From assembly GCA_009784275.1 (NCBI GenBank), contig WRCA01000001.1, positions 62,404 through 126,403 on the forward strand: a DNA stretch of 64,000 nt. Direction: 5' to 3'. The translations under genes were made by a program, and so were the position numbers. Source of the DNA: Alphaproteobacteria bacterium (GTDB taxonomy: Bacteria > Pseudomonadota > Alphaproteobacteria > Rs-D84). Positions 859 through 54,850 of the stretch are shown here, piece after piece (the first letter of the stretch is position 1; every line of letters begins with the position of its first letter). Below the pieces are notes generated by a model, which saw nothing but the letters and a program-made list of their open reading frames with translations, did not search any database and was not told where the DNA came from.

Positions 859-2214
859 ATGTCGAAAAAGAACAAAACTAGCAAATGCACATTCTTCAAA
901 TTCTTTTTATTTTTCTTGTTTTGTTCAATTACGCCCGCTATCAGCGCATGCAATCCTGGATGTTTTGATAACGGAATAGATTGTGAACCATGCTTAACAG
1001 GAACATATTCCGAAAATGGCGATACATGCATCAGCTGCCCCAATGGAAAGACTGGAAATATTACTGTTGGTTCTACATACTGCGTCAATTACATAAATTT
1101 GAAAAGCAGCACCAACGCGTCAGTAATATTAAGAGCAAATAAAAATACTACGCCCAACTTGTGCATAGAAACAAATAGTGGGGATAAATACTACGCTGAT
1201 CTGTCATCTATTCTTACTGGCAAATTCAAGATAATTCATAACAGCACAGCTTACTCTGTCGTGGAACCCGCCGGGAAACTGGCCAGTGAATGCGGTATTC
1301 CTGATCGCGGTTTTCAAGTGACCTTGCAGGGTATGTTTACAAATAACACTTTTAGTTTCGAAATTTCTTCACAGGGAAATTTCCAAGTAGATTGGGGTGA
1401 TGGTACAGCAATACAACAAATAAACAAAGCGAATACCACAAAAACTACTTATTCGCATACATATACTTTTTCTGGTGGTGGAACCAAGGACTACATCGTA
1501 ACTTTAACTGGCCAGGCGACGGGACATAGCTCTGGCATTATGGCGCCAGCGATATCTTTTGAAAATTCTTTCAGCAGGAGTAAAATAGTCGCTATCACCG
1601 GCGATCTGGGTGCGATATTTCCGATATTGGGCAACCCCGTTGGCAGCACAATCGGCAGTCCACAGTTTTATCAAACATTCTATGGTTGCAGTGGTCTTAC
1701 TAAAATACCGGACAACCTGTTTGCCGGTCTTAATGGCCCTCCGCTGACTTTTATGTTTTATGGCACATTCCAAAACTGCACTGGTCTTACCAAGATACCA
1801 GCCGATTTGTTTGCCAGTGTAAAAGGCGCACCAGCGAATGGTATGTTCTATGCTACATTTCAGGGCTGTACTGGTTTGAAAGGAGAAATACCAGGCAGCT
1901 TGTTTGCAGGAATCAAGGGCGCGCCAATAAGCTGGATGTTTGGGCTTACATTTTCTGGATGCAGCGGTTTAACCAGCATTGGCGATGGATTATTCGATGG
2001 CATATCAGGAGCAATGGCAAGCTATGCATTCACAAGCACATTTGATGGATGTGCTAATCTTACTGGGCCATCAGCAACAACCAAAGGCAGCAACGGCATC
2101 AGAAAACCTTTATACCAGGAATGGCCATCAGCGTTAACTGGCCAAGTCGGAAACTGTTACACCGGCGCGAACAAACTTACTGATTGGGGCAGCATTCCAG
2201 CAGCATGGAAATAA
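859..2214 (+). CDS. secreted multidomain surface protein: Cys-rich module, PKD-like domain and ~30-aa FxxTFxGCxGLTxIP repeats (paralogue A)
   Basis: 451-aa ORF with SD gggagag upstream and a hydrophobic signal peptide. The Cys-rich module reads CNPGCFDNGIDCEPCLTGTYSENGDTCISCPNGKTG. A PKD-like signature reads FQVDWGDGT...YSHTYTF...YIVTLTG. Four to five repeats of about 30 aa follow. A paralogue lies at 29294-30229. Confidence 0.85.
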   Translation: MSKKNKTSKCTFFKFFLFFLFCSITPAISACNPGCFDNGIDCEPCLTGTYSENGDTCISCPNGKTGNITVGSTYCVNYINLKSSTNASVILRANKNTTPNLCIETNSGDKYYADLSSILTGKFKIIHNSTAYSVVEPAGKLASECGIPDRGFQVTLQGMFTNNTFSFEISSQGNFQVDWGDGTAIQQINKANTTKTTYSHTYTFSGGGTKDYIVTLTGQATGHSSGIMAPAISFENSFSRSKIVAITGDLGAIFPILGNPVGSTIGSPQFYQTFYGCSGLTKIPDNLFAGLNGPPLTFMFYGTFQNCTGLTKIPADLFASVKGAPANGMFYATFQGCTGLKGEIPGSLFAGIKGAPISWMFGLTFSGCSGLTSIGDGLFDGISGAMASYAFTSTFDGCANLTGPSATTKGSNGIRKPLYQEWPSALTGQVGNCYTGANKLTDWGSIPAAWK

Positions 2215-9709: not shown

Positions 9710-12250
9710 TTAACAACGAGTACCCGGCGGAGCACCCGGTTTCGGTATACTGATAGTTTGCTGTCTCATCGGAGGTCCCGTCGTAAATGTAATCCGAATA
9801 CACATATCATCTTCTTCTTGTGTAATATCAAATTCACAGGGGCATCCTTCGCCGTCAGCACCGCCACCGGGAGGCCCCGCAGGACCGACAGGACCAGTAT
9901 CACCTTTCGGACCTACTGGGCCTTGTGCGCCATTTGTGCCTGCAGCCCCTTGATTGCCTTGCGGGCCTTGCGAGCCTGTACCAGTTAAACCTTGGTTACC
10001 CTGATTTCCTTGTGGGCCTTGGGCACCTGTACCAGTTAAGCCCTGATTACCTTGAGAACCGGTTGCTCCCTGGTTTCCTTGTGGTCCTTGTGAACCTACA
10101 CCAGTAAAGCCTTGATTTCCTTGATTACCTTGAGATCCAGTCGCACCAGCTGTACCTTGGTTACCTTGTGGACCCTGCGAGCCTATACCAGTCAAACCTT
10201 GGTTACCCTGATTACCTTGTGGCCCTTGCGCACCTGTACCAGTTAAGCCTTGATTACCTTGTGATCCGGTTACTCCTTGATTTCCTTGCGGACCTTGCGA
10301 ACCTACACCAGTAAAGCCTTGGTTGCCTTGCTGGCCGTTCGTGCCAGCCGTACCTTGATTGCCTTGGTTCCCTTGGGGCCCTTGCGCGCCTGTACCAGTT
10401 AAACCCTGATTACCTTGCGATCCAGCCGCGCCGGCTATACCTTGGTTACCTTGTTGGCCATTAGTACCAGCGGTACCTTGATTACCCTGTAAACCAGTTC
10501 CGCCAGTTAAGCCTTGATTGCCTTGTGATCCGGTTGCGCCAATTGTACCTTGGTTGCCTTGCTGACCGTTCGTACCAGCTATACCCTGGTTACCTTGTTG
10601 GCCATTTGTGCCGGCCGTACCTTGATTGCCTTGCGAACCAGTTGCGCCCTGATTCCCTTGAGAACCTGTGGCTCCCTGTACACCTATGCCAGTTGCACCC
10701 TGTGAACCATCTATACCTGCAGTGCCTTGATTTCCTTGGGCACCAGCCGCTCCTTGCGAACCTGTCGATCCTTGTGCGCCAGCGGTACCTTGTGGACCAG
10801 GTATTCCTATACCAACTCCATCCTCACCAGGTATACCTTGCGGGCCGGCGCCGCCTGTTGCACCAGTAGACCCCTGTGCACCAGTTGTACCTTGTGCTCC
10901 TGTTGCGCCCTGGGCGCCATTTATTCCATCAATACCATCTGCGCCTTGGGCCCCTGTTGCACCTTGGGAACCCGTGGCGCCTTGTGCACCAGCAGAACCC
11001 TGCGCACCAGCTGCTCCTTGGGCGCCATCTGTACCATCAATACCATTTGCACCTTGCGGACCTGTGGCGCCTTGTGCGCCTGTCACACCTTGGGCACCAT
11101 TGGTACCGTCTGAACCATCGGTTCCTCGTTCACCTGGTTCACCTTGGTCACCTTTGACACCTTGCGGACCTGTATCACCGATTTCGCCCGTCGGACCAAT
11201 ATCACCCTGTGGACCTTTTTCACCTGGATCACCCAGGGGACCCTTGTCACCCTGCGGACCTTTATCACCATGGGCACCATCCGTACCAGGCATGCCTGGT
11301 AACCCTTCTAAACCCGGTTCTCCATCTGGACCTCTTTCACCTGGATCTCCTTGGGGACCCTTGTCGCCTTGGGCGCCTTTATCTCCGGGATTACCATCAG
11401 CGCCTGGAGCACCAGCCGCACCTTGTGCGCCATCTGGGCCTTGATTGCCATCGGGACCTGCACCATCTGGACCTTGTGCGCCAGTTGCACCCTGTGCACC
11501 GGCAGAACCTTGCGGACCAGCAGCACCTTGTGCGCCATCAGGACCTTGATTACCTTCGGGACCAGCACCATCTGGACCTTGGGCGCCAGTCGCACCTTGG
11601 GAACCTGTGGTTCCTTGCGAACCAGCCGCGCCTTGCGAGCCAGAAGCACCTTGATTACCGTCAAACCCTTGACCGCCAATCGTACCGATAGCGCCTTGGG
11701 TACCAGCAGAACCTTGCGGACCGATCACACCCTGTGCACCAACTGGACCTTGGGCGCCATCTGGACCCTGGACGCCAGATCCGCCTTCACCCCCGCCTTG
11801 CGGGCCTTGAGGACCAGTAGCACCGGTCGCACCTTGGGGACCTGTTGTTCCGGTTCCTGTGGAACCTTGGATACCTTGGGCTCCTTGAAATCCTTGCGGG
11901 CCATGGGCACCCTGCGGGCCGGCTTCGCCGTCGCCGATGCCATCTATTATGTTATAGATAACATCTTGAAAATTATTGAACTCGCTGTAAGTAACATAAT
12001 TAGAAAGGTCAATTGAACCACCACCGCCGCCGCCACCAGGAACTTTTACAATAGACCCAGGCTTCAGCGTATATGCTGTAGACTGAAGATACTTGCTGAT
12101 GGTATTAGTCATACGAGGCTGGTTCGCAGCGCTACGCGCAATAGAAGCACTGGTAGTAGTAGATGCAGGGATTTTTACAGTAGCCGCCGCCATAGAATCG
12201 GTAAACGATACCAATGACACCGTAAGAGCAAGCATGGAAACTCGTAACAT
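9710..12250 (-). CDS. secreted collagen-like (Gly-X-Y) repeat protein, paralogue 1 of 3
   Basis: 846-aa ORF with SD ggaaaggaaggg upstream and a signal-peptide-like N-terminus. A conserved ~105-aa N-module ends in [26 protein letters not shown]. Hundreds of residues of G-X-Y repeat follow. The protein ends in a short Cys-containing tail (GCPCEF...). Confidence 0.9.
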
Positions 12251-12271
12251 ATCCCTTCCTTTCCGCGGAAT

Positions 12272-12322
12272 TTATTCTCTGATTGGAAAAGTATATTACA
12301 AAAGCTTTTGTCCACGCAAGCG
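12272..12322 (-). promoter_or_regulatory. conserved upstream block shared with the 52290-54776 paralogue (promoter / 5' UTR)
   Basis: About 50 nt are near-identical to 54799-54850 (ttattctctgatwggaaaaktatattacaaaagcwtttgtccasgcaagcg). Confidence 0.55.
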
Positions 12323-12367
12323 TTTATTTTTCAATTAATTTTTAGGATATAATATAAAAACTATTCG

Positions 12368-27296: not shown

Positions 27297-27896
27297 ATGG
27301 CGACAATAATTCCTCTTTCTGACTATTTGCGTGAACCGTTTGATATTTCGAAGAACGTGTTATTGGGCGCGACTTTATATTCGCGCATCGATGGAAAATT
27401 ATGCGCAGGACGTATTGTTGAGTTAGAGCTTTATAAAGGCGATTGCGATCGCGCCTGTCATGCCTTTCCAAATAAGAAGACCCCGCGCAATGCAGCGATG
27501 TTCGGGATGGGTGGGCATGCTTATGTTTATTTCGTTTATGGAATGCATAACATGTTTAATGTTGTAATCGGTGATAAGAATTGTCCAAATGCTATATTGA
27601 TTCGCGCGCTGGAACCAACCGTTGGAATTGATATTATGCAAGCACGACGCGGGATTGCCGATGTACGAAACCTATGCAATGGTCCGGCGAAATTGACCGA
27701 GGCGCTGGGCATTACGACAAAACATAATGGTTTGGATTTAATCAATGGCGACAAAATCTGGATAGAATCACGGGTTGGCGTAGCGCCGAAAATCGCGGCT
27801 GGCGCGCGCATAGGGGTGGATTACGCTGGCGATGACGCAAAGTTGCCCTGGCGATTTGTCATCGCAGGCAGCAAATTCATCAGCCGGTCAATTTAA
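27297..27896 (+). CDS. mpg: DNA-3-methyladenine glycosylase (Mpg/AAG family)
   Basis: GRIVELELYKGDCDRACHAF...RNAAMFGMGGHAYVYFVYGMHNMFNVV...ILIRALEP matches the AAG-family pattern. The ATG at 27297 is preferred to the TTG at 27273. Confidence 0.85.
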   Translation: MATIIPLSDYLREPFDISKNVLLGATLYSRIDGKLCAGRIVELELYKGDCDRACHAFPNKKTPRNAAMFGMGGHAYVYFVYGMHNMFNVVIGDKNCPNAILIRALEPTVGIDIMQARRGIADVRNLCNGPAKLTEALGITTKHNGLDLINGDKIWIESRVGVAPKIAAGARIGVDYAGDDAKLPWRFVIAGSKFISRSI

Positions 27897-27912
27897 TAGA
27901 AAAAACAAGTTA

Positions 27913-27942
27913 TTGATTAAGAATTCGCTTTTATAGTATAAT
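27913..27942 (+). promoter_or_regulatory. sigma70-like promoter TTGATT-18nt-TATAAT placed for a leaderless transcript
   Basis: The -10 hexamer ends 6 nt before the ATG at 27949, and there is no SD between them. Confidence 0.45.
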
Positions 27943-27948
27943 TTTCCC

Positions 27949-29292
27949 ATGACAGCAAAGTTTAAAGTTTCCATAATCGCAATAGCGGCATCTTTGGTGT
28001 CGTTTTCTAATTCCATTGCTGCTGTCCCCAAAAAAATTCCTGCATCTACTATTAGCGCCCCTATTGCGCGCAGTGCCGCCAGTCAGCCGCGCGCTTCAAC
28101 ACAAACCTCCTTGGCTCTGTCGCGAATGCCTTCCTTTAAACTAGGTTCCGGCACAAACATTCCTGGTGGCGGTGGTTATGTAGACCTGTCTAATTATATA
28201 ACCATAAGCGAATTCAATAACTTTCAAGATGTTATCTATAACATAATAGATGGCATAGGCGACGGAGATACCGGTGCACAAGGCGCGACAGGTGCCCAGG
28301 GTCCGCAAGGCTCACAAGGCGCAACTGGTCTGCAGGGACCACAGGGCGCAAGCGAAGGCGGTTTTGGCGCACAAGGTGATATTGGTCCGCAAGGATCAAA
28401 GGGGGATCAAGGCAATACCGGCACGCAGGGCGCGCGAGGATTTCAAGGTGACAATGGTACCCCAGGTATAAAAGGTGATCAAGGGGATACAGGCGCACAA
28501 GGCGCAACTGGCGCGCAAGGTCCGACCGGAGAAGGAATAGGGATTCCTGGGTCCCAAGGAGAGCAAGGTACACAAGGTGTAACTGGGACACAAGGTTTTC
28601 AGGGTGCAAACGGAGCACAAGGCGTAACGGGCACAACTGGTCCGCAAGGCTATACCGGTGCAATGGGTCCACAGGGACATAATGGTGCGGACGGAGCCCA
28701 AGGTTATCAAGGCGAACCGGGAGTTGGCGCAAAAGGTGACCAAGGATATCAGGGTCAGAAAGGTGAATCTGGCGAAGGCATTGGAATTGCCGGACCACAA
28801 GGTCATCAGGGTGGACCAGGCGCACAGGGGAACCAAGGTTACCAAGGAGAATTGGGGGTTGGCGCGAAAGGCGATCAGGGCCATACCGGGGTGCAGGGTG
28901 CGACAGGCCAACAGGGATCGCAAGGAACCCAAGGCGCACAAGGCGCGGATGGTATGGGCTCGCAAGGCTTACAAGGTGTCCAAGGTGATGCCGGCGTCCA
29001 AGGTATAAAAGGCGATCAGGGGGATATCGGCGCACAAGGCAACCAAGGTTATACCGGCACGATAGGCCCGCAAGGCTATAACGGCGACCAAGGCCTGCAG
29101 GGATTCCAAGGCAATACTGGTAATACCGGAGCACAAGGACATCAAGGGTTCCAAGGCTATACCCCTGCAATCGGCACAACGTCCGGTACTATTGCCGGCG
29201 GCGATGACGATCGGTTCGATACTGTCCCAGATTTGCCCGGGGCGCCGGCAGGTACGCCACCCGCGGGTCGCGTTTATGTCTGGGTGCAATAA
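27949..29292 (+). CDS. secreted collagen-like (Gly-X-Y) repeat protein, paralogue 2 of 3
   Basis: 447 aa with the same N-module (…[29 protein letters not shown]) followed by G-X-Y repeats. It contains no Cys. The C-terminal tail reads [15 protein letters not shown].... Confidence 0.9.
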
Positions 29293-29293
29293 T

Positions 29294-30229
29294 ATGAAAA
29301 ATATTTGCAAATATTTTTTCCTTTTTCTGATTCCTATAATTTTCATTAGTGATGCACATGCAGCAAGCAGCTGTGAACCGGGGTGTCATTTGGATGGGGG
29401 AATATGCAATCCATGCGACACAGGGACATATGAAAACAATGGCAACTGCATCGCATGCCCGGCGGGACAGACGGGCAATATCTTGACCGGCGCAACATCT
29501 TGCGTTAATTACAGAACTTGGAATACCAGCAATGGCGTGTCGGCATTCTTGCGTTCGACAAAAACCACAACGCCCAGCTTGATGATAAAGGATTCAGTCG
29601 GCGGTATTTATTACGGCAATTTATCCAGCACATTGCCCGGAGTATTCAAACTGGTGCATAACGGCACGTTGTATTCATTGGCAGAGCAAGGCAAGCTGCA
29701 ATCTTCTTGCGGCGGCATACCATCAGGTTTTCGAGTGATGCTGGACGGGATAAATCCCAGCGATACTTTCAACTTTCAAATATCAGCGCCCGGCAATTAT
29801 GCAATTCACTGGGGCGACGGCAACATGGATACAGTTAACAAAGCTGGCACAGCATTGACGACATATTCGCATGTGTATGCAGCCGGTGGAAATTATACGG
29901 TGACAATCGGCGGCGGCGCGACCGGGTATAGCAACAATACGACGACCGCGGCGATAAGTTTTTATAACTCGATAAACAAAAATAAAATTGTCGGCATTGA
30001 TGGCGACCTGGGCGCGATATTCCCGATACTGAATACATCCGATACCGGCAGCCCGCGGTTTTACAGAACATTCAAGGATTGCATCAATATGGCCGGCGAA
30101 GTTCCCAGCGATTTGTTTGCTGGAATTGTCGGCTTGCCGGTAACAAACATGTTTGCTGAAACATTCATGGGATGCACAAGTATCGATAGCATAGGCGACG
30201 GTCTGTTCGATGGTCTGATCGCTCAATAA
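29294..30229 (+). CDS. Cys-rich / PKD-like / 30-aa-repeat protein, truncated paralogue B
   Basis: The ATG lies 1 nt after the collagen gene stop. Signal peptide MKNICKYFFLFLIPIIFISDAHA, Cys module CEPGCHLDGGICNPCDTGTYENNGNCIACPAGQTG, and PKD-like HWGDGN...YSHVYAAGGNYTVTIGG. It has two repeats and stops after GDGLFDGLIAQ. Confidence 0.85.
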   Translation: MKNICKYFFLFLIPIIFISDAHAASSCEPGCHLDGGICNPCDTGTYENNGNCIACPAGQTGNILTGATSCVNYRTWNTSNGVSAFLRSTKTTTPSLMIKDSVGGIYYGNLSSTLPGVFKLVHNGTLYSLAEQGKLQSSCGGIPSGFRVMLDGINPSDTFNFQISAPGNYAIHWGDGNMDTVNKAGTALTTYSHVYAAGGNYTVTIGGGATGYSNNTTTAAISFYNSINKNKIVGIDGDLGAIFPILNTSDTGSPRFYRTFKDCINMAGEVPSDLFAGIVGLPVTNMFAETFMGCTSIDSIGDGLFDGLIAQ

Positions 30230-30239
30230 GAAGGGTATA

Positions 30240-31619
30240 ATGTTTTATAAAAAATTATTCTTATTAGCGTTTTTGTTTTTTGCGACCATTGGTATTGCAG
30301 TCGCCGATCCCGATACGAACCAAGGCAAAGGCCTTGCGTTGGGCAATCAAGAGCCGACAGAAATTTTGGTAAAGTTTGTACAGAATGTTGGCAAAGGCCA
30401 AGTGCCAGAATTGTCCGATGCAACAGAGGTCGGCAGCATCCCGCAAATTGGAGTAAAAATATTAAAGGTCAAAAATCCAAAAGCCATCGCAAAACTGTTG
30501 GAACATAACAAGCATGTCGTATACGCCGAACCGAACTTTATTATGCACTTCAACATCATTCCAAATGATCCGCAATGGAAATCACAATCAGCAGCACTGA
30601 ACATCATTAACGCACCGGCGGGCTGGGATATCACCACCGGTGTTGGCAGTCCCATTATCGCCATAGTCGACAGTGGCGTCGCGAGCGGCCATACCGACTT
30701 GCCTCTGCTGTTACCGGGCTATGCGGCCGTTTCTGGTCTTTCACCAAATAACGACAAGGTGGGACATGGCACCGGTGTTGCCGGCACTGCGGGCATGATT
30801 GGGAACAATGGAATCGGCGGCGCGGGCATAAACTGGAACGCACAAATTCTGCCGGTCAAAATTGACGATGCCAATGGCACAATAACGGTCGCCAATGTTG
30901 CAAAAGGCGTTATATGGGCATCAGACAATAACGCAAAGGTCATGAATCTTTCTTTGGGGACTACATCAGACAGTGTGACATTGAAAAACTCCATAGATTA
31001 TGCTTATAACAAAGGCGTCGCTATTTTCGCGGCGACCGGTAACGATGGAAAAAACAGCATCGATTGGCCTGCGCGATATCCCAACGTTATCGCTGTCGGC
31101 AGCACAGGCAACGGCACAACACGTTATTCATCTTCCAATTACGGACCCGGCATGGACGTAGTGGCCATCAGCAGTTATTACACAACAACAGCCGCGGGCG
31201 GTTGGTTGAATATGGCCGGCACATCATTCGCATCGCCCCAAGCTGCGGGCTTGGCATCGCTGGTCTTTGCGGTTTGGCCCAGTGCGACGCCCGCCCAAGT
31301 ATATGATGTTATTCGGGACGGAGCAACGACACTGGGGGGCGGATATAATCAAGAAACGGGTTATGGACTTATTAATATGAGTGCAACTTTGACGCTGGCC
31401 GTGCAACGGGCTAGCAGCGGCAATAATATCATTTGGCCAGATAGCGCGTTTGAAAATATGTTTTCTGGTTGCACTTCTCTTTCTGGACCATCCGCGAAAT
31501 CGAGCGGTCAGTTTCTTTATCAAATCGCCCCAGCACTTGTTACTGGTGCCTATACCGGCGCCACCGGGCTTTCCGATTATAACCAAATTCCCGCGTCATG
31601 GGGCGGCGGAGGCATGTGA
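30240..31619 (+). CDS. S8 subtilisin-like serine protease with I9-like propeptide and a C-terminal tail homologous to the end of paralogue A
   Basis: 459 aa with a signal peptide. Catalytic triad motifs are AIVDSGV (Asp), HGTGVAG (His) and GTSFASPQAAG (Ser). The last ~65 aa (AFENMFSGCTSLSGPSAKSSG...YNQIPASWGGGGM) align with the C-terminus of the 859-2214 protein. Confidence 0.9.
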   Translation: MFYKKLFLLAFLFFATIGIAVADPDTNQGKGLALGNQEPTEILVKFVQNVGKGQVPELSDATEVGSIPQIGVKILKVKNPKAIAKLLEHNKHVVYAEPNFIMHFNIIPNDPQWKSQSAALNIINAPAGWDITTGVGSPIIAIVDSGVASGHTDLPLLLPGYAAVSGLSPNNDKVGHGTGVAGTAGMIGNNGIGGAGINWNAQILPVKIDDANGTITVANVAKGVIWASDNNAKVMNLSLGTTSDSVTLKNSIDYAYNKGVAIFAATGNDGKNSIDWPARYPNVIAVGSTGNGTTRYSSSNYGPGMDVVAISSYYTTTAAGGWLNMAGTSFASPQAAGLASLVFAVWPSATPAQVYDVIRDGATTLGGGYNQETGYGLINMSATLTLAVQRASSGNNIIWPDSAFENMFSGCTSLSGPSAKSSGQFLYQIAPALVTGAYTGATGLSDYNQIPASWGGGGM

Positions 31620-31665
31620 TTTTTTGTTGAAATTTACCCAGAAATAAATATAATGAGCCCCACAT

Positions 31666-31742
31666 GGATGATTAGCTCAGTTGGTTAGAGCGCTTCGTTC
31701 ACATCGAAGAGGTCGGAGGTTCGAGTCCTCTATCATCCACCA
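31666..31742 (+). tRNA. tRNA-Val (anticodon CAC)
   Basis: Acceptor stem is ggatgat/atcatcc, anticodon arm cttcg-TTCACAT-cgaag, T-arm ggaggttcgagtcctc, and the CCA is encoded. Confidence 0.92.
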
Positions 31743-31767: not shown

Positions 31768-31789
31768 AAAACCCCGCAAATTGCGGGGT
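31768..31789 (-). terminator. intrinsic terminator of the 31809-32195 gene
   Basis: Hairpin accccgcaaattgcggggt with a T-rich run on the minus strand. Confidence 0.65.
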
Positions 31790-31808: not shown

Positions 31809-32195
31809 TTACTTTCTTTCCGAAATGCCTCTTTCCGAAACACCGCGTTCTGGGCGTTGAGTTTTATCATCTTTCATACGCTCTGGCATTTGGATACCGC
31901 AAGTTTCAAATGCTTTTTTCATGCATTCGCGGCTGGCTTCGCGGGCAGCCTTTTCTTCCTCTGTTAATTCTCTTTTATCCGGCAATTGCCCCGACTTTAA
32001 TTCTTCGCCGGATTTTTTCATTTTCATTCCGGACTTCGGACAATCTTGTTCTGCCAGGCAGGCTTTTTGTTCATCAGTGAGTTGTTCCATAAAACTGCCG
32101 ATCTTACCGCCGCTAAATTTTCCATCGGGGACGGCTTCGGCATTCGCCATAACAGGCAGCGTCAATAAAAATGCCATAATAAATATTTTTCTCAT
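31809..32195 (-). CDS. small secreted charged protein (128 aa)
   Basis: The start is set at MRKIFIMAFLLTLPVMANA (signal peptide). The ORF-track start is 32276. Confidence 0.6.
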   Translation of the reverse strand: MRKIFIMAFLLTLPVMANAEAVPDGKFSGGKIGSFMEQLTDEQKACLAEQDCPKSGMKMKKSGEELKSGQLPDKRELTEEEKAAREASRECMKKAFETCGIQMPERMKDDKTQRPERGVSERGISERK

Positions 32196-32350
32196 TTTAT
32201 TTCTCCTTTGCATTCCTGTGCGCATTATACTACATACATACAACATGACACAATTGTTATTAAATTCTTTCGACAAATGTTTTGCGTATATTAAATAAAG
32301 TATTCATTCCTATTTGCTAATCCGCGCAACGTCTATAGAATTTGCTGGAA

Positions 32351-40776: not shown

Positions 40777-41549
40777 TTTTCTTCCCAAATTAAATGATTA
40801 ATACTCTCAAAGCCTTTTCCATGTTTGGCATTCGGGATAATTATAATTCGTTCCGGATTATTTATAAACTCTGCCGTTAATATTATCGGTATCACACTAT
40901 CTTCTGTACCGACATAATGTATTTGTGGAAATTTATTATATTCCTCTTTATATAAATTCAAATCTAATGACTGGTTTAATGGCGGAAGATTTTTCATTCT
41001 CGTCCATTCCGGATGATTTAGATTCCCAGCAATCGTTATTAATTTTTTCACATTTATTTCAAGATGCAATACTGCGACCAGTCCCGCAATTTGCGCGCCG
41101 CCCGAAAAACCGATTAAAATCATAGGACGGCGGTCAACAATTTGCTTTATAACCTCTGCCGATGCATCTACTGCTTTTTTCGAAAACCTGGCGGTTGTCC
41201 AATCGGTTTCTGTGCAGATCGGATCTTTTATATACTGACAAGGACGCGCGATATATACAACATTAGGAGAAGGATCTTCGAACGCAAGCCTTTGCATAAA
41301 ATCATCACGCGGCGTCGGGTCGGATGTTGGATGACCCCAGCCATCAAAGGCATTTCCGTCGCCTTCGATATAAATTTTTATAACAGCTGTTGAGTTTGTT
41401 AATTTCTGATAAATGCGCAAAGTAAACGTATCTGTATGTATATCGTGTTGCATAAAAGAATCCGGCGGCAAAATTTTCTGCGCGCATGCCGATACTAAAA
41501 ATAAACAAAGGAGCGCAATTTGCGCCCTTTGTTTTCCTCTCCCCAACAT
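40773..41549 (-). CDS. alpha/beta-hydrolase-fold lipoprotein
   Basis: Lipobox LVSAC and nucleophile elbow GFSGG. The start codon overlaps the stop of the upstream autotransporter by 1 nt (TGATG). Confidence 0.7.
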   Translation of the reverse strand: MLGRGKQRAQIALLCLFLVSACAQKILPPDSFMQHDIHTDTFTLRIYQKLTNSTAVIKIYIEGDGNAFDGWGHPTSDPTPRDDFMQRLAFEDPSPNVVYIARPCQYIKDPICTETDWTTARFSKKAVDASAEVIKQIVDRRPMILIGFSGGAQIAGLVAVLHLEINVKKLITIAGNLNHPEWTRMKNLPPLNQSLDLNLYKEEYNKFPQIHYVGTEDSVIPIILTAEFINNPERIIIIPNAKHGKGFESINHLIWEEN

Positions 41550-43777
41550 CAGAATCTGTACTTCAGTGTTACCAAGCCGGTGTTATCGGTATAGTTGCTG
41601 CGGAATCGGCCGATATAGCTGACCGTTAAATCAACCCTGTCTATTGCCATCGTTAAGCCAGCGCCGGCTTCCATGCCAAAGCGTTCCAACGCGCTGCCGC
41701 GCACATTAATAACAGCGCCATTCGCCATCGTCATATATGCAGATACATCGTCCGTTATAATATCATATATTGCACCAGCATAAATTTCTGGCCGCAGACT
41801 GCATTTCGATGCGCCGCCGTATTCATGCGATTGTCTTTTGTACTCGTAAGCCAGTTTTACACCCGCAATACCGGTTAAGTAATTAAAATTGCCGCTGTGG
41901 GTAGATGAACCCGTAGAATCCGTAAATGATTCTTGTGATACATTCAAATATCGCAAGCCTGCTTGGGGTGTTAACATTACATCATGATCGGAAAGCTCGT
42001 ATCCAGTAATACCTTGGGCTGCGAATGTATTGATAGTATGTTCACTGGTTACCGTCGACCCCAGGATATGTTTTTCGTCGTCATAGTTACTCCAAGTATA
42101 ACTGGCGGCACCATTCACGAACCAAGCTGTTGGTTTATATTCGCCATACAGCAAAGCAGTATGCGAATTGATTTTGCTTTCGCTTATAGTTGGGGTCACA
42201 TGCGTGTTAGTATAAGCATAACCAACACCCAGCTTTACGGATTCTGATACAAGCGCTTCCGCCCCGGCTGCTGCCCCGCGCGAGTCAGAAGAGAATCCGT
42301 TATTCCCGCGCAATCTTGAACCATTAATTAAACCTTGGACCCAGATCGCTTCTCGTCTTAATCGCAGATCACCAGAAGATTGTCCGCTGGCCGTCGGAAT
42401 ACCGCCGGAAAGTCGGGTTCCGATCGCATCCAAAACTTGCAATGAATTCTGTGTCGCGATTGCTTGCGCCGATGGCGCGGATGTCGGAGCAAACGCTTCT
42501 GCCGCCGCCAAAGCTTCCGCAACTTCTGCCGGATTTCCAGACTGCATCAAATCAGTAATATTATTCGCAATCGTATTAAACTGACTGTTGCTGGAAGGGC
42601 CACTTATAAGACCCATCAGCGCCGAGACCTGATTAGAATTTGCGCCGGTGTTTGCTGCTATTTGGTCAGCGGTTTTTTGCGACACATTAAATGTATCATC
42701 CGCGTTCTGCGTAATATTATACAATGCATTAATCCCAGTATAAGCAAACGAGCCCGTGGCATTTGCTATATCCCATAGTTCCAGATTATTGCCGCTGACG
42801 CCGGTTCCAATAACCAGATTGCTTAATGTGCTGCCGCTGCCTATTGTAATAGTATCCGCCATAATTGTCGGTGTCATCTGCAGCTTTGCAATCAATGTCG
42901 TATTCGGATCAAATGTGATAGAGCTGCCTGTGCCACCGATAACACCCCCATCCAGGGTTACTGTTCCGCTACCCGTAAAGCTTACATCCCCCAGGCTGTA
43001 GATATCATTCAAAACTCCCGCAGCTGTGTTATTTGCAAATGTAACATTACCATCAAAGGTTATCGTTCCTGTATTATAAATCGCGCCGCCTTGGCCGCCT
43101 GCGGTATTTCCAGAAAATGTCGCGCCGCTGCCAATCGTAATATCACTGACGTAATTGGCAATTGCGCCACCGTTGGTTTTAGCAGAATTATTTGTGAACG
43201 AAGCATTATTTCCAATCGTTGCTGCGCCTGTGGTAGACGCGAAATTCCAATTGAAGATCGCGCCGCCGTGTATGCCAGACATATTACTATCGAATATAGC
43301 ACCATCGCCGATATTGGTCGTTACGTCTTGCAGGTACAACGCGCCACCCCATCCCAAGGGAGCTGTATTCCCTATAAATGAAACATTATTCAAGATGGCT
43401 AATATAGATGGGGCCGCATTTCCCGAAACATAAATCGCGCCACCGGCATCGGCTACTGCGGTGTTTTGTAAAAATAGAACACCGTTTCCAACAGTCAATG
43501 TCGCCGGCGGATGGCCAACGGTACTGTCAGGAACGCTATAAATAGCGCCTCCGGCATCGGCCTGGTTTAAAGAAAACTTAAGATTGTCTTCTATAATTAC
43601 CGTTCCTGAATAATTCGCGATGACACCGCCGCCATTCGGTCCGAAATATTTCAAGCCCGTCGCGCCGCTGGTAATCGTTTGAATTTCGCCATAGTTAACC
43701 TCTATCCTATTCGCGGCAAGGGCCGGCGTGGACGCCAAGATAAATCCGATGACGGCTAAAATCTTTTGATACCTCAT
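41549..43777 (-). CDS. autotransporter with Pmp-type (GGAI / FxxN) passenger repeats
   Basis: 742 aa with a signal peptide. Six GGA(I/L) motifs are each paired with FxxN (FLQNTA, FIGNTA, FDSNMS, FTNNSA, FSGNTA, FANNTA). The C-terminal beta-barrel ends ...VTLKYRF. Confidence 0.85.
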   Translation of the reverse strand: MRYQKILAVIGFILASTPALAANRIEVNYGEIQTITSGATGLKYFGPNGGGVIANYSGTVIIEDNLKFSLNQADAGGAIYSVPDSTVGHPPATLTVGNGVLFLQNTAVADAGGAIYVSGNAAPSILAILNNVSFIGNTAPLGWGGALYLQDVTTNIGDGAIFDSNMSGIHGGAIFNWNFASTTGAATIGNNASFTNNSAKTNGGAIANYVSDITIGSGATFSGNTAGGQGGAIYNTGTITFDGNVTFANNTAAGVLNDIYSLGDVSFTGSGTVTLDGGVIGGTGSSITFDPNTTLIAKLQMTPTIMADTITIGSGSTLSNLVIGTGVSGNNLELWDIANATGSFAYTGINALYNITQNADDTFNVSQKTADQIAANTGANSNQVSALMGLISGPSSNSQFNTIANNITDLMQSGNPAEVAEALAAAEAFAPTSAPSAQAIATQNSLQVLDAIGTRLSGGIPTASGQSSGDLRLRREAIWVQGLINGSRLRGNNGFSSDSRGAAAGAEALVSESVKLGVGYAYTNTHVTPTISESKINSHTALLYGEYKPTAWFVNGAASYTWSNYDDEKHILGSTVTSEHTINTFAAQGITGYELSDHDVMLTPQAGLRYLNVSQESFTDSTGSSTHSGNFNYLTGIAGVKLAYEYKRQSHEYGGASKCSLRPEIYAGAIYDIITDDVSAYMTMANGAVINVRGSALERFGMEAGAGLTMAIDRVDLTVSYIGRFRSNYTDNTGLVTLKYRF

Positions 43778-51962: not shown

Positions 51963-52052
51963 TGGCGGATGGGGAGGGATTCGAACCCCCGGTGGAGTTG
52001 CCCCCACGACGGTTTTCAAGACCGTTGCATTCAACCGCTCTGCCACCCATCC
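51963..52052 (-). tRNA. tRNA-Ser (anticodon TGA)
   Basis: The minus strand gives acceptor stem ggatggg/cccatcc, anticodon arm acggt-CTTGAAA-accgt, a long variable arm, T-arm gggggttcgaatccctc, and an encoded CCA. Confidence 0.9.
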
Positions 52053-52289: not shown

Positions 52290-54776
52290 TTATTTTGGGA
52301 TTTTACAATCAACTTGTGATATCGAACACGGTGGCGGTTGATATAGCTGGTCAATATAGACTTCGCCATCTGTCTTCATCTTTACAATCGCACAACCTGA
52401 TGGACTGCTTACTACGTTGCATCTCACCTCTTCTGATGGTTTCTCCAGCCCTTCCGCTTCAAAGTCTATTTTTCCTAATGTGCGATCACCAGATTCAAAT
52501 AGTATAGTCAACAATTCAGAAGAGAGATATCCTGACAAAGTGAATCTATAGCCATTCTGCCAAGTTGAAGCCCAGGCGTTTTCAAAATGCCCTTTATCAA
52601 AACCTGCATCCCAGTCTTTTTCCTTTTCTCCAAGATCAACGGTTTCACCATCACAAGGACATGTTCCCGGGGGGCCAGAAGGTCCCGTCGGTCCCATTGG
52701 GCCTGTTGCACCGGTGGAACCATTCGCTCCTGCTGAACCTTGTGGGCCGGCGGGGCCTTGCGGACCTTCCACGCCATTCAAAGCCAGATTAGTAACAAAC
52801 TCTGAAAGACTTGTGAACTCGGATTGAAGAGTTGTGAACTCATTCAAAAGATTATTGAACGTTTCTATATCAACATAAGGACCGCCTTCGCATGTTTCGC
52901 ATGTGCCAGGTTCGCCGTCATTACCTTTATCGCCTTTCAAGTCATCTTTTGTGAGATTCAGATTCTTCCATTCTTCATCGCACGGTTCCATCTTATACTG
53001 AATCGTTCCATCTTCGTTCATATGCATTTGAAAATTCATGCCATCGCAAGGATCCCCTGTCCCGCCTGTTCCCGGGGGTCCGGGAGGCCCTTGGACACCT
53101 TCGCATATTTCACATGCGCCGATATCCCCCTGATCGCCTTTTGCACCATTTGCACCGTCCGCACCTTGCGGACCTTGTGTTCCATCTGCGCCTTGGACAC
53201 CTTGCGGGCCAGAATCACCTTGTGGTCCGGGTATTCCGATGCCAGCCCCATCCGCACCTTGCGCGCCTTGTGTTCCGTCTGCACCTTGGGCACCAGTGAC
53301 ACCCTGCGGACCAGCGCCCCCTTGGTCGCCTTGCGTGCCATTCGTACCTTGATTACCTTGCACACCGGCCGTACCTTGGGTGCCCGTGGTGCCCTGTGTA
53401 CCGGCTGTGCCTTGGTCACCCTTTACCCCTTGTGGGCCTTCGGGACCGGGTATTCCAATGCCTTCCCCATCTGCGCCCTGCGGGCCAGAATCACCTTGTG
53501 GGCCTATCGGGCCCCTTACGCCATCTGCACCAGTCGCACCTTGGGCCCCGGCTGCACCTTGTGGACCTTCTGAACCTGCTGGGCCTGCTGGGCCCCTCGC
53601 ACCATCTGAACCCGGTGTACCCGGTGTTCCTGCCGCGCCGGTTGCGCCCTGTGCCCCTGCTGCACCCGCCGGACCCCTTGCGCCATCCATACCCGGCGCG
53701 CCTTGCGGACCTGGCTCACCCGGTGTGCCGGGTTCCCCTATCAATGATTCAAGCCACTCTTCAAAGGTTCCTTCGAATCCTTCTTCTACCGCCAGATCAT
53801 ATGCAGATTTGCCCTGTGGGCCTTGGGCACCTATTTTAAATGAACCAAACCAATTGGTTATATTGGTCCATGTGGGATCCCCGCCATCAAGCTCATACGC
53901 TGATTGTCCTGCGGAACCTTGCGGGCCTGTTGGGCCCGTTGGGCCAATCGGGCCTGTCGCACCAGCTGGACCTGGCGCACCGGTCGCACCCTGTGAGCCC
54001 GCTGGACCCGTTGAACCACCGCCGTTCCATGGAACATTTACAAACATACGCTCGCTGCCATCAAGCTGCACCGGATACATTCTGTCCGGATCCGCAATTG
54101 CGACCCCCAGTTCAGGAGTTCCGTTAATCGTAACGTCAGAGCCAAGTTTTGCACCACCACGGACTGTCACTTGGGCCAGAGGCAAAACATACGCATCAGG
54201 AATAAACGGTTTGTTCGCCAAATCATCATAATCACCGGTTTTCGAAACCTTGTGCAATTGCACGGTTCCATCAAATGACTCGGAAGGATTGGGGATCAGC
54301 GATGTAACAATCGTAGTATTCAATGTTCCTGTGGCACCGCCGCCGGCTGATCCCTGGGGACCAATCGGACCTTGCACGCCTTGCGGACCTGTTGTGCCAA
54401 TGCCAGTTGCACCTTGCGAACCTTGTGGCCCGGTGGTGCCCTGTGGGCCGCTACCGCCGCTTATGCCATCTATTATACTATAGATAAGATCTTGAAAATT
54501 GTTGAAATCGCCAAAGGTCACATAATTAGAAAGATCGACATAATCACCGCCGCCACCCCCGATGCCGCTGGGACTCGGAACCTTTACAGTGGCCCCAGGT
54601 TTTATTGCGTACGCCGTAGAACCAAGATATTTGCTGATGGTATTTGTACGTGGCGCACTGGCATTGCGCGCAACACCAGCAGTAGTGGATGCAGGAATCT
54701 TCACGGTAGCTGCCGCAACAGAGCTTGCGAATGGCGCCAACGACACCGCAAGTGCAAGCATGGAAATTCTTCTCAT
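52290..54776 (-). CDS. secreted mosaic collagen-like / tail-fibre-like protein, paralogue 3 of 3
   Basis: 828 aa sharing the N-module of paralogues 1 and 2. G-X-Y blocks are interrupted by tail-fibre-type segments (HKVSKTGDYDDLANKP, GKSAYDLAVEEGFEGTFEEWLESL), Cys knots, and a globular C-terminal domain of about 150 aa. Confidence 0.9.
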   Translation of the reverse strand: MRRISMLALAVSLAPFASSVAAATVKIPASTTAGVARNASAPRTNTISKYLGSTAYAIKPGATVKVPSPSGIGGGGGDYVDLSNYVTFGDFNNFQDLIYSIIDGISGGSGPQGTTGPQGSQGATGIGTTGPQGVQGPIGPQGSAGGGATGTLNTTIVTSLIPNPSESFDGTVQLHKVSKTGDYDDLANKPFIPDAYVLPLAQVTVRGGAKLGSDVTINGTPELGVAIADPDRMYPVQLDGSERMFVNVPWNGGGSTGPAGSQGATGAPGPAGATGPIGPTGPTGPQGSAGQSAYELDGGDPTWTNITNWFGSFKIGAQGPQGKSAYDLAVEEGFEGTFEEWLESLIGEPGTPGEPGPQGAPGMDGARGPAGAAGAQGATGAAGTPGTPGSDGARGPAGPAGSEGPQGAAGAQGATGADGVRGPIGPQGDSGPQGADGEGIGIPGPEGPQGVKGDQGTAGTQGTTGTQGTAGVQGNQGTNGTQGDQGGAGPQGVTGAQGADGTQGAQGADGAGIGIPGPQGDSGPQGVQGADGTQGPQGADGANGAKGDQGDIGACEICEGVQGPPGPPGTGGTGDPCDGMNFQMHMNEDGTIQYKMEPCDEEWKNLNLTKDDLKGDKGNDGEPGTCETCEGGPYVDIETFNNLLNEFTTLQSEFTSLSEFVTNLALNGVEGPQGPAGPQGSAGANGSTGATGPMGPTGPSGPPGTCPCDGETVDLGEKEKDWDAGFDKGHFENAWASTWQNGYRFTLSGYLSSELLTILFESGDRTLGKIDFEAEGLEKPSEEVRCNVVSSPSGCAIVKMKTDGEVYIDQLYQPPPCSISQVDCKIPK

Positions 54777-54798
54777 TCCCCATCCTTTTTGAATAGGA

Positions 54799-54850
54799 TT
54801 ATTCTCTGATAGGAAAATTATATTACAAAAGCATTTGTCCAGGCAAGCGC
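54799..54850 (-). promoter_or_regulatory. conserved upstream block shared with the 9710-12250 paralogue
   Basis: Near-identical to 12272-12322. Confidence 0.55.

What the first reader, a model, noticed from the sequence alone, without database searches (positions are those of the whole stretch)
27913..31619. Compact candidate surface-fibre module: leaderless collagen-like gene, Cys-rich/PKD/30-aa-repeat protein and S8 subtilase
Three co-directional genes are packed with gaps of 1 nt and 10 nt behind a single promoter. The promoter's -10 hexamer ends 6 nt before the first ATG and there is no SD, which implies a leaderless start. All three products have signal peptides. The products are a Gly-X-Y triple-helix protein, a protein combining a eukaryote-like Cys-rich module, a PKD-like domain and BspA/DUF285-like repeats, and a subtilase with a propeptide. 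Paralogues of the first two components recur in this window (859-2214, 9710-12250, 52290-54776), so this is a gene-family system rather than a one-off. I do not know of a described bacterial system with this composition. A plausible function is assembly or processing of collagen-like surface fibres or adhesins by a dedicated adaptor and protease.
Basis: partly seen in the sequence, partly recalled or inferred. Interest (0 to 1): 0.8.

Follow-up and report, generated by a model that had tools for sequence, protein, structure and literature searches.

The report
Subtilase-split surface gene beside collagen-like gene
Three tightly packed secreted-protein genes in an uncultured gut-type alphaproteobacterium are real, but they are a one-off rearrangement rather than a conserved three-part system: a subtilisin-type protease gene has landed inside a repeat-protein gene next to a collagen-like gene, and only the pairing of protease with collagen-like protein recurs in related genomes.

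Summary
The three genes, the 1-nt and 10-nt gaps and the TTGATT-18-TATAAT site ending 6 nt before the first ATG are all present. G1 is a collagen-like protein with 97 Gly-X-Y triplets. G3 is an intact S8 subtilase with a prodomain.

The trio is not a conserved module. G2 is the N-terminal five-sixths of a rare PARCEL/LRR-like repeat protein; the search for its relatives listed 11 proteins, and G2 alone lacks the family's C-terminal cap. That missing ~60-aa cap is fused in frame to the end of G3. So an S8 gene sits inside a split repeat gene.

No other locus examined combines all three families. G3's closest relatives, from Alphaproteobacteria MAGs partly of termite gut, sit in a different, conserved two-gene operon. 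In six loci (about five lineages) the S8 gene is followed by a short collagen-like gene carrying G1's N-terminal module, and both products end in CxCxC.

G1 shares its promoter with the two collagen paralogues in the window. It has a 25-nt deletion that removed the Shine-Dalgarno site and the old start codon, leaving an ATG at the predicted transcription start. The leaderless state is therefore derived.

My reading is a lineage-specific surface-protein islet next to tRNA-Val, with a probable but untested functional link between protease and collagen-like protein. Interest is moderate.

The parts
27913..27942 (+). Promoter-like site: -35 TTGATT (27913-27918), 18-nt spacer, -10 TATAAT (27937-27942)
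   Evidence: Read directly and listed at 10/12. The same columns are conserved upstream of the collagen paralogues at 12250(-) and 54776(-) (alignment A5).
27949..29292 (+). G1, a collagen-like protein of 447 aa. Signal peptide about res 1-25; shared N-terminal module res 26-105, including [11 protein letters not shown]; Gly-X-Y region res 106-405; short Cys-free C-terminus.
   Evidence: Relative to its paralogues it has a 25-nt deletion that removed the SD and the ancestral ATG.
29294..30229 (+). G2, 311 aa: the truncated N-terminal part of a PARCEL/LRR-like repeat protein. Signal peptide; Cys-rich module about res 26-73; beta-sandwich with the PKD-type WGDG...YSHVY...GNYTV motif about res 145-240; two ~30-aa repeats res 253-311. 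It stops right after SIGDGLFDGL.
   Evidence: 49% identity to the paralogue at 859-2214 over 293 aa. It is the only one of the 11 proteins listed by the G2 search that lacks the C-terminal cap. Weak Pfam hits. AF2 model of the paralogue.
30230..31436 (+). Inserted S8 segment: SD-like GAAGGG, then ATG at 30240, signal peptide, prodomain (res 41-99), catalytic domain (res 108-383) and a linker to res 399
   Evidence: Homology to the S8 relatives ends at ...TLTLAVQ. The junctions were mapped. No target-site duplication or terminal repeats were found.
30240..31619 (+). G3, 459 aa: a chimeric S8 subtilase consisting of the subtilase plus a repeat-family C-terminal cap
31437..31619 (+). 3' end of the interrupted repeat gene (last repeat plus cap, G3 res 400-459), read in frame with the S8
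   Evidence: 44% identity (E 4e-10) to res 390-450 of the paralogue. It aligns with the tails of all family members. The equivalent tail in the paralogue model has pLDDT 92-97.
31627..31742 (+). Promoter-like site (31627-31654, 11/12) and tRNA-Val(CAC) 31666-31742, which bounds the islet
859..2214 (+). Full-length paralogue of G2 plus the G3 tail (451 aa), downstream of tRNA-Asn and tRNA-Lys
9710..12250 (-). Collagen-like paralogue (846 aa) with the same promoter and N-terminal module, an SD-containing leader and a GCPCE motif
52290..54776 (-). Collagen-like paralogue (828 aa) with the same promoter and N-terminal module and an SD-containing leader, next to tRNA-Ser

Best explanation
The 3.7 kb between the methylpurine glycosylase gene and tRNA-Val is a lineage-specific islet of secreted or surface proteins. 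It lies in an uncultured alphaproteobacterium from a metagenome whose closest relatives are termite-gut MAGs. The islet was assembled by rearrangement and is not a conserved three-part machine.

Shown:
1. G1 is one of three dispersed paralogues of a rare collagen-like family. The paralogues share a promoter and a ~100-aa N-terminal module.
2. G2 together with the last 60 residues of G3 makes up one former PARCEL/LRR-like repeat gene. An S8 subtilase gene, with its own ribosome-binding site, signal peptide and prodomain, sits at a single point inside that gene. It now reads through into the gene's 3' end.
3. G3 is the sister of a small alphaproteobacterial S8 clade. The members of that clade lie in a two-gene operon with a short collagen-like gene carrying the same N-terminal module, and both partners end in CxCxC.

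Inferred:
- The three genes are transcribed together from the family promoter. The transcript starts at or next to the G1 ATG, a leaderless state created by the 25-nt deletion.
- G2 is translated by coupling to G1, and G3 from its own SD.
- The protease is exported as a zymogen, self-activates, and acts on or with the collagen-like family. The most likely target is the disordered Ala/Ser/Thr/Arg-rich stretch of the N-terminal module, because triple helices resist subtilases. This would resemble the N-terminal cleavage that accompanies BclA attachment.
- G2 is a bystander or an accidental partner rather than a designed adaptor.
For: Gene anatomy and the split gene:
- Gene anatomy.
- G2 aligns to the 451-aa paralogue at 49% identity, and the G3 tail to that paralogue's last 60 aa at 44% (E 4e-10).
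- G2 stops after SIGDGLFDGL and G3 resumes at SAFENMFSGC, with only about 3-5 residues unaccounted for relative to the paralogue's ...DGISGAMASYAFTSTF....
- The G2 search listed 11 proteins, G2 itself included. The ten others are 351-506 aa; the nine whose sequences reach that region carry the cap, and only G2 (311 aa) lacks it.
- The cap is an integral, high-confidence part of the modelled repeat domain.

The S8 clade and its partner:
- G3 is 57-62% identical to P0002-P0005. Those proteins cover only about 84% of G3 and end in CxCxC instead of the cap. A neighbour-joining tree places G3 as their sister.
- In L002, L003, L004, L005, L045 and L053 the S8 stop is followed after roughly 10-25 nt by an SD and a collagen-like gene. 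Five of these genes are complete (162-207 aa) and end GIC.CEC; in L002 only the first codons lie before the contig end. Four of the five complete proteins carry G1's DLS.Y.T..EF motif, and all share the N-terminal module.
- None of the other S8 loci fetched (Firmicutes, Chloroflexota and others) has any Gly-X-Y ORF.

Promoter and transcription:
- The promoter is conserved and G1 carries a 25-nt deletion.
- No + strand promoter-like site lies in either intergenic gap, and no + strand terminator-like site lies between the genes.
- Leaderless mRNAs are common in alphaproteobacteria: 375 in Caulobacter (PMC4117421).

Analogy: BclA attachment is accompanied by cleavage of its N-terminal domain (PMC10470788).
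Against: - No experiment or expression data exist for this locus.
- The S8-collagen operon is seen only in about five related lineages, three of which share part of their flanks. Shared ancestry could therefore explain some of the linkage.
- In the window the order is collagen, then repeat fragment, then S8, not S8 then collagen. G1 belongs to the long-collagen subfamily and is not the orthologue of the short partner.
- Both G1 and G3 have lost the CxCxC ends that mark the canonical pair.
- The first 60 nt of the putative leaderless mRNA are predicted to pair the AUG in a stem (-13.4 kcal/mol, z = -2.4). That should lower leaderless initiation, for which start-codon accessibility is one of the defining features (PMC8459731).
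- Each of the three genes carries a derived, possibly degenerative change.
Confidence: 0.55

Rival explanations
1. The three genes form a dedicated module in which G2 is an adaptor and G3 a processing protease for collagen-like surface fibres.
For: Tight spacing and a single plausible promoter. All three proteins look secreted. The protease clade is linked to collagen-like genes elsewhere. One repeat-family gene lies 1.4 kb from a collagen-like gene (L115).
Against: The trio occurs nowhere else. The repeat family is absent from every other S8 locus. The repeat-family genes examined sit among housekeeping, integrase or restriction-modification genes. G2 is a truncated gene, not a distinct adaptor family.
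Confidence: 0.1
2. G3 is a general secreted degradative protease acquired horizontally. Its position next to collagen-like genes has no functional meaning.
For: G3 has a thermitase/savinase-type catalytic domain (about 1e-40). The clade is nested beside the S8-DUF5011 proteases of Firmicutes MAGs, some from the same termite-gut MAG series, at up to 67% identity; those have no collagen partner. Three of the collagen-linked loci share downstream context, so synteny may be inherited.
Against: The pair keeps an operon-like spacing of roughly 10-25 nt across S8 divergence of 69-79%, with at least two different upstream contexts. Both partners carry a rare C-terminal CxCxC that the Firmicutes relatives lack. 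The divergent G3 also lies beside a collagen-like gene, in a different arrangement.
Confidence: 0.22
3. The islet is decaying. The three genes are remnants on their way to becoming pseudogenes after rearrangement, and the canonical S8-collagen operon elsewhere does the work.
For: G1 lost its SD and start codon and has no Cys. G2 lost its cap. G3 lost its own promoter region and its CxCxC end. The predicted fold occludes the G1 AUG. A canonical operon (L002) occurs in the same sample with near-identical composition: tetranucleotide r = 0.967, GC 0.457 against 0.454.
Against: All three ORFs are intact at 447, 311 and 459 aa. The catalytic residues are kept. The new G1 ATG is in frame, lies exactly at the predicted transcription start, and restores a basic signal-peptide start. 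The fusion to the cap is in frame. Identical G3 and G2 proteins are on record from more than one source: two index blocks for G3 and a longest contig of 196,885 bp against the 88,678-bp contig returned.
Confidence: 0.12
4. The region is part of a prophage tail-fibre module.
For: G1 and its paralogues hit many PHROG tail-fibre families.
Against: For G1 and its two paralogues all those best hits lie in the Gly-X-Y tracts. The flanks are LpxI, a DNA glycosylase, tRNA-Val, a GT61 glycosyltransferase and KdtA. IMG/VR holds no relatives of the S8 clade, the collagen N-terminal module or the repeat protein.
Confidence: 0.01

Closest known systems
BclA-type collagen-like nap proteins of the Bacillus exosporium (PMC10470788)
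   Same: Both are secreted collagen-like fibres with a short N-terminal attachment module, a Gly-X-Y stalk and a variable C-terminus. BclA attachment is accompanied by proteolytic cleavage within the N-terminal domain.
   Different: The host here is a Gram-negative alphaproteobacterium with no spores. The N-terminal module is unrelated in sequence. A candidate protease is encoded next door here, whereas I know of no adjacent protease gene for BclA (my own knowledge).
Scl1/Scl2 (Streptococcus) and Lcl (Legionella) collagen-like adhesins
   Same: Gly-X-Y tracts. The NCBIfam models hit at 1e-34 to 1e-42.
   Different: The scores (119-147 bits) are far below the curated cut-offs (325-500). The matches rest on the repeat only. 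There is no LPXTG motif and the terminal domains are unrelated.
Thermitase/subtilisin-type S8 peptidases with a fervidolysin-like N-terminal prodomain
   Same: The catalytic D-H-S triad with the oxyanion Asn, a prodomain and a signal peptide.
   Different: G3 carries a foreign 60-aa repeat-protein cap. Its sister clade carries a CxCxC end and a collagen-like operon partner.
PARCEL / DUF285 / TIGR02167 surface repeat proteins (PMC2996958)
   Same: Tandem amphipathic repeats with a ...F..TF.GC.(G)LT.IP..LF.G... pattern. The paralogue scores 28.8 bits on TIGR02167. That paper also describes a PARCEL ORF split into N- and C-terminal parts by insertion of a mobile element.
   Different: The repeat period is about 30 aa rather than the canonical 25. 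The scores are just below or well below the cut-offs. The N-terminal Cys-rich and PKD-like modules are unusual. Here the insert is a single protease gene fused in frame, not a conjugative island.
Collagen-stalked enzyme complexes of animals: MBL/ficolin-MASP, C1q-C1r/C1s, and ColQ-tailed acetylcholinesterase (my own knowledge, not tested)
   Same: A collagen-like trimer paired with a serine hydrolase. In ColQ-AChE the link involves terminal cysteines.
   Different: This is purely an analogy. There is no homology and no evidence of a complex here.

Membership tests
Bacterial collagen-like proteins (Pfam Collagen PF01391) | Long uninterrupted Gly-X-Y tracts | tested here: met
   131 bits against a cut-off of 27.2. 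There are 97 triplets in 7 tracts, res 106-405.
Scl1/Scl2/Lcl adhesin equivalogs (NCBIfam) | Whole-protein score above the curated cut-off | tested here: not met
   147 against 400, 119 against 325, and 119 against 500 bits.
Peptidase S8 (subtilases) | S8 domain with Asp-His-Ser in that order plus the oxyanion Asn | tested here: met
   145.9 bits against a cut-off of 21.8. D144, H176, N236 and S329 are present. Thermitase, Ak.1 protease and savinase match at about 1e-40.
Peptidase S8 (subtilases) | N-terminal propeptide | tested here: met
   Fervidolysin_NPro-like, 33.5 bits against a cut-off of 21, res 41-99. Inhibitor_I9 was not listed at E up to 0.01.
Type VII secretion mycosins (TIGR03921) | Score above the curated cut-off | tested here: not met
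   173 against 278.75 bits.
PARCEL / DUF285 / TIGR02167 repeats | Tandem 25-26-residue repeats recognised by the DUF285 or TIGR02167 HMMs | tested here: inconclusive
   G2 has no hit. The paralogue scores 28.8 against 30 bits on TIGR02167. One of 13 family rows hits DUF285, at 1.3e-4. The period is about 30 aa. The family profile weakly matches LRR proteins in the PDB (E 0.0025).
PKD domain | Pfam PKD or PKD_4 above the cut-off | tested here: inconclusive
   G2 scores 16.9 against 27 bits. Three of 13 family rows hit PKD_4, best 1.7e-4. The WGDG...YSHVY...GNYTV motif is present, and the equivalent region of the paralogue model is a confident all-beta unit.
Ephrin-receptor-like / TNFR-like Cys-rich module | Pfam PF07699 or PF23091 above the cut-off | tested here: inconclusive
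   19.1 against 23.1 bits and 16.7 against 33.2 bits. Five of 13 rows hit PF23091. The best Foldseek match is ELAPOR1 (E 3.9e-4, probability 0.91), but with a low TM-score.
Prophage tail module | Adjacent phage structural or packaging genes, or relatives on viral contigs | tested here: not met
   The flanks are cellular genes. Three IMG/VR scans were negative. The best PHROG hits of G1 and its paralogues lie only in the Gly-X-Y tracts.
Leaderless mRNA | Transcription starts at the first base of an accessible AUG | not testable with these tools
   The geometry fits: the -10 ends 6 nt before the ATG, and the promoter is conserved among paralogues. The AUG is predicted to be paired. No RNA data are available.
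Conserved S8-collagen-like operon of the alphaproteobacterial clade (defined here) | S8 ending in CxCxC, followed after a short intergenic gap by a short collagen-like gene ending GIC.CEC | tested here: not met
   G3 ends in the repeat cap and is followed by tRNA-Val. G1 lies upstream, is long and has no Cys.

The most novel reading that the evidence does not exclude
In this alphaproteobacterial clade the subtilase may be physically mounted on a collagen-like stalk through the matching C-terminal CxCxC motifs. That would be a bacterial 'collagen-tailed protease'. In this window the tether would have been swapped. The protease now carries the C-terminal cap of a solenoid repeat protein, and the capless G2 is made from the same transcript. 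The two chains could therefore re-assemble by fragment complementation, placing the protease on G2's Cys-rich and PKD-like binding modules.
Probability: 0.1. Interest if true: 0.7.

Novelty: new variant of a known kind. Interest (0 to 1): 0.38.

Why it matters
If the link between protease and collagen-like protein is functional, it would provide a genetically defined maturation or tethering enzyme for bacterial collagen-like fibres. To my knowledge none is established for other bacterial collagen-like proteins such as BclA. It would also add a small, tractable two-gene system with a possible cystine-knot end, which is of interest for recombinant collagen design.

The window also offers two clean evolutionary snapshots. 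One is a leadered, SD-dependent gene converted to a leaderless layout by a single 25-nt deletion plus a point change. The other is a gene-within-gene insertion that creates an in-frame domain fusion. Neither changes a major concept. The main practical result is that the proposed three-component system should not be catalogued as one.

Tried and rejected
- PHROGs: many tail-fibre hits, but for G1 and its paralogues only to the Gly-X-Y tracts. Rejected as evidence for a phage.
- PADLOC: generic subtilase hits only. There is no link to a defence system.
- Rfam: tRNAs only.
- Search for target-site duplications or terminal inverted repeats at the S8 junctions: none convincing, so the insertion mechanism is unknown. 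A 20-nt, 90% match between G1 (28246-28265) and G2 (30182-30201) is probably chance.
- Foldseek of the whole paralogue model against the PDB: only weak local matches. The repeat domain has no good solved counterpart.
- AF2 model of G3 with a mixed alignment: mean pLDDT 64.6, because misaligned rows degraded it. It says nothing reliable about how the cap sits on the protease.
- Viral scans with alignments A6 and A3 failed for lack of conserved stretches. I repeated them with A7, A4 and a single protein.
- Look-up of P0132: not on record.
- Literature search for a collagen-like/subtilisin operon: nothing relevant.
- I considered that the split gene could be an assembly chimera. I rejected this because both halves flank the insert in the right order and frame, and because identical G2 and G3 proteins are on record from more than one source, including a 196,885-bp contig longer than the 88,678-bp contig returned for G3.
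- Read-through from G2 into G3 is excluded, because the two genes are in different frames (coordinates).

Full report
**Observation**

The window carries three co-directional ORFs: G1 at 27949-29292 (447 aa), G2 at 29294-30229 (311 aa from its ATG) and G3 at 30240-31619 (459 aa). The G1 stop and the G2 ATG are 1 nt apart. The G2 stop and the G3 ATG are 10 nt apart, with a GAAGGG motif between them. Upstream of G1, TTGATT (27913-27918) is followed by 18 nt and then TATAAT (27937-27942). Six more nucleotides separate the -10 hexamer from the ATG, and there is no SD-like motif.

A consensus scan lists this site at 10 of 12 matches. It finds 12 sites in the region against 8.8 +/- 2.6 in shuffles, so the hexamers alone are not significant. 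No + strand promoter-like site lies in either intergenic gap, and no + strand terminator-like site lies between the genes. The next strong site (31627-31654, 11/12) precedes tRNA-Val at 31666-31742.

All three N-termini have a basic start, a hydrophobic core and an A-x-A-like end.

**Domains**

- G1 matches Pfam Collagen at 1.3e-38. It has 97 Gly-X-Y triplets in seven tracts (res 106-405), is Gln-rich and Pro-poor, and has no Cys. The NCBIfam Scl and Lcl models hit only the repeat and score far below their cut-offs.
- G3 matches Peptidase_S8 (2e-42) and a fervidolysin-type prodomain (5.5e-8). It resembles Ak.1 protease, thermitase and savinase at about 1e-40 over res 108-383. D144, H176, N236 and S329 are present.
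- G2 gives only sub-threshold hits: Ephrin_rec_like 19.1 against 23.1 bits, PKD_4 16.9 against 27, and a TNFR-like model 16.7 against 33.2. Across its family these weak hits recur. An AF2 model of the full-length paralogue (mean pLDDT 81; block means of 87 or more over most of res 150-451, with a dip to 68-73 near res 250-270) shows a beta unit followed by a repeat domain with very short strands. Its best PDB match is ELAPOR1 (E 3.9e-4), with a low TM-score. The family profile weakly matches LRR proteins.

**The key anatomy that was missed**

G2 aligns at 49% identity (E 5e-85) with the 451-aa paralogue at 859-2214, but it stops early. The last ~60 residues of G3 (res 400-459) align at 44% identity (E 4e-10) with the last 60 residues of that paralogue.

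- G2 ends ...CTSIDSIGDGLFDGLIAQ*.
- The paralogue reads ...SIGDGLFDGISGAMASYAFTSTFDGCANLTGPSA....
- G3 resumes ...WPDSAFENMFSGCTSLSGPSA....

A search of 5.8 billion proteins listed 11, G2 itself included. Where a source names the organism, it is 'Alphaproteobacteria bacterium' (MAG). The other ten are 351-506 aa. The nine whose sequences reach that region carry the C-terminal tail F..TF.GC..LTGPSA...GQ.LYQ.WP......Y.GATGLSD..SIP..W. G2, at 311 aa, is the only one without it, and the G3 tail fits the consensus. In the model of the paralogue the tail has block pLDDT of 92-97, so it is the cap of the repeat domain.

Homology of G3 to other S8 proteins ends at ...TLTLAVQ. An S8 gene with its own SD, ATG, signal peptide and prodomain therefore sits at one point inside a former repeat-protein gene and reads through, in frame, into that gene's 3' end. 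G2 and G3 are in different frames, so this is not a read-through product. I found no target-site duplication or terminal repeats. Identical G2 and G3 proteins are on record from more than one source, including a 196,885-bp contig, which argues against a misassembly. A PARCEL ORF split by an inserted element has been described in Mycoplasma (PMC2996958).

**Relatives of the protease**

The window comes from an ENA metagenome contig (ERZ27257304, 88.7 kb). G3's best hits, P0002-P0005, are 59-65% identical over their best local alignments and 404-424 aa long, and they cover about 84% of G3. They come from Alphaproteobacteria MAGs, including the termite-gut series WRIM01 Nt197P3bin44. They lack the cap and end in P[RK][LM]C.C.C.

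The next-best hits are S8-DUF5011 proteins at up to 67% identity; those that carry an organism name are from Firmicutes MAGs. A neighbour-joining tree puts G3 as sister to P0002-P0005, with the two together beside the Firmicutes-type clade. This suggests an old transfer between gut bacteria.

**What is conserved is a pair, not a trio**

In L003, L004, L005, L045 and L053 the S8 stop is followed after roughly 10-25 nt by an SD and a short collagen-like gene (162-207 aa). In L002 the same gene start (MKRISMIA) is cut by the contig end. These short proteins share G1's signal peptide and N-terminal module. Compare AAT.K.P..T...VDLSNYVTLNEFDNL in the short proteins with [15 protein letters not shown] in G1. 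They end GIC[MLA]CEC. L002 and L053 have identical S8 ends, so there are about five lineages.

The S8 genes of this clade also share an upstream CTTGATA-N17-TA.GATTA element that G3 lacks. None of the other S8 loci fetched from genome or metagenome collections has any Gly-X-Y ORF.

Conversely, tblastn with the repeat paralogue found nothing in any of the 112 loci then held, apart from the window itself. Four repeat-family genes examined in context lie beside an integrase and fatty-acid synthesis genes, beside an aldolase and a DHH-family gene, beside a restriction-modification system, or beside an outer-membrane-like gene. There is no G3-like S8 in any of them, and only one has a collagen-like gene, 1.4 kb away on the opposite strand. 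In the window, the paralogues are singletons among thymidine kinase, acetate kinase, RNase PH, Lgt and a methyltransferase, three of them beside tRNA genes.

**The collagen-like family**

G1 and the window paralogues at 9710-12250 and 52290-54776 share the first ~105 residues at 51-63% identity. A profile of this module found only 12 proteins at E up to 1e-3 among 1.84 billion representatives. Several of these carry the same module in front of C-terminal parts that are not collagen-like. It therefore behaves as a shared targeting, attachment and trimerisation module. A word-indexed search found only three short collagen-like proteins from Alphaproteobacteria MAGs.

**Promoter and leader**

Aligning the three collagen-gene upstream regions shows the -35 and -10 hexamers in the same columns (CTTGC.TGGACAAA.GCTTTTGTAATATA.TTTTCC). 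The two paralogues continue with a leader of about 38 nt containing AAAGGA.GGG before their ATG. G1 has a 25-nt deletion covering the SD and the old ATG. Its ATG corresponds to ATC at the predicted start of the ancestral leader.

Leaderless mRNAs are frequent in alphaproteobacteria (PMC4117421). Start-codon accessibility is one of the features that define leaderless initiation (PMC8459731), and here the AUG is predicted to be paired (-13.4 kcal/mol, z = -2.4). About 21 of 36 genes in the window have an SD-like motif.

**Interpretation**

The evolutionary description is well supported. The function is inferred.

The recurrence of an S8 from this clade next to a collagen-like gene with the same N-terminal module, in two different arrangements, argues for a functional link. 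So does the rare shared CxCxC end in the canonical pair. The most economical mechanism is proteolytic maturation of the non-helical N-terminal module, as happens during BclA attachment (PMC10470788). A physical tether is a more speculative option.

In the window both partners lack the CxCxC end. Each of the three genes carries a derived change, so partial decay cannot be excluded. A canonical operon (L002) occurs in the same sample with near-identical composition (r = 0.967), and it may belong to the same genome.

The prophage reading is rejected. No defence-system signature was found.

**Verdict**

This is a new variant of known kinds (bacterial collagen-like surface proteins, subtilases and PARCEL-like repeats), with one hypothesis worth testing (the S8-collagen-like partnership) and two tidy evolutionary events. 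Interest is moderate to low.

Noticed in passing
L002 11213 region; L003 1645; L004 3407; L005 3467; L045; L053 (ends of the S8 genes and of the following collagen-like genes): All six alphaproteobacterial S8 relatives end in C.C.C (for example PRLCPCSC, KKMCECSC). The five complete short collagen-like partners end GIC.CEC. The long collagen paralogues in the window have GCPCE or TCPCD after their last Gly-X-Y run. This may be a shared cystine knot or a tether, and I do not know it as a described motif. Both G1 and G3 lack it.
   Followed up: partly
window 27829-28010 against 12190-12370(-) and 54716-54896(-): A 25-nt deletion in G1 removed the SD and the ancestral start. An ATC-to-ATG change at the predicted transcription start created the present start codon. 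This is a snapshot of a leadered gene becoming leaderless.
   Followed up: yes
window 334-486, 31666-31742, 51963-52052: The surface-protein genes sit next to tRNA genes: tRNA-Asn and tRNA-Lys before the repeat paralogue at 859, tRNA-Val 46 nt after G3, and tRNA-Ser beside the collagen paralogue at 52290-54776. L002 also appears to have a tRNA-like sequence just upstream of its S8 (seen only as a translated ORF, not scanned). This may point to islet-type insertion sites.
   Followed up: no
window 7763-8365 (+): A 200-aa ORF has an Mtd_N domain (major tropism determinant N-terminal domain, 2.3e-13). It lies 1.3 kb from the collagen paralogue at 9710-12250. I did not check whether a diversity-generating retroelement is nearby.
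   Followed up: no
L003 2305-3747(-), L004 4028-5251(-), with 103-aa lipoprotein-like genes at L003 3765-4076(-) and L004 5269-5580(-): Collagen-repeat proteins whose C-terminal sequence looks like a YadA-type membrane anchor by eye (no Pfam hit is on record for them) lie convergent to the S8-collagen operon. Each has a conserved 103-aa Cys-containing lipoprotein-like gene next to it. L005 has a YadA_anchor gene, by Pfam, in the same position.
   Followed up: no
L002 3617-6145(-) and 6164-8398(-): Two large (842 and 744 aa) secreted, very Cys-rich, coiled-coil-like proteins with no Pfam match lie near the canonical S8 gene. They are in the same sample as the window.
   Followed up: no
Proteins P0006-P0050; loci L006, L007, L009: The alphaproteobacterial S8 clade is up to 67% identical to S8-DUF5011 proteases of Firmicutes MAGs (Clostridiales, Oscillospiraceae), some from the same termite-gut MAG series as the alphaproteobacterial relatives. 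This suggests inter-phylum transfer within a gut community.
   Followed up: partly
window 28246-28265 and 30182-30201: A 20-nt direct repeat, 90% identical (ATAGATGGCATAGGCGACGG / ATCGATAGCATAGGCGACGG), encodes IDGIGDG in G1 and IDSIGDG in G2, about 25 nt before the S8 insertion point. It is probably chance.
   Followed up: no
window 41549-43777 (-): A 742-aa autotransporter with faint Chlam_PMP repeats (gene table). It is another surface protein in the same window.
   Followed up: no
window 31809-32276 (-): A 155-aa (128 aa from the called start) Lys/Glu-rich protein with a signal-peptide-like start and no Pfam match lies convergent to the islet. A terminator-like hairpin is at 31771-31789.
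   Followed up: no
L113 3664-4683 and 4988-6259: A phage-type integrase gene lies directly upstream of a repeat-family member (P0125). In this locus the integrase and the repeat gene lie between a NUDIX hydrolase gene and the ACP/KAS II genes. This is a hint that the family moves as small islets.
   Followed up: no
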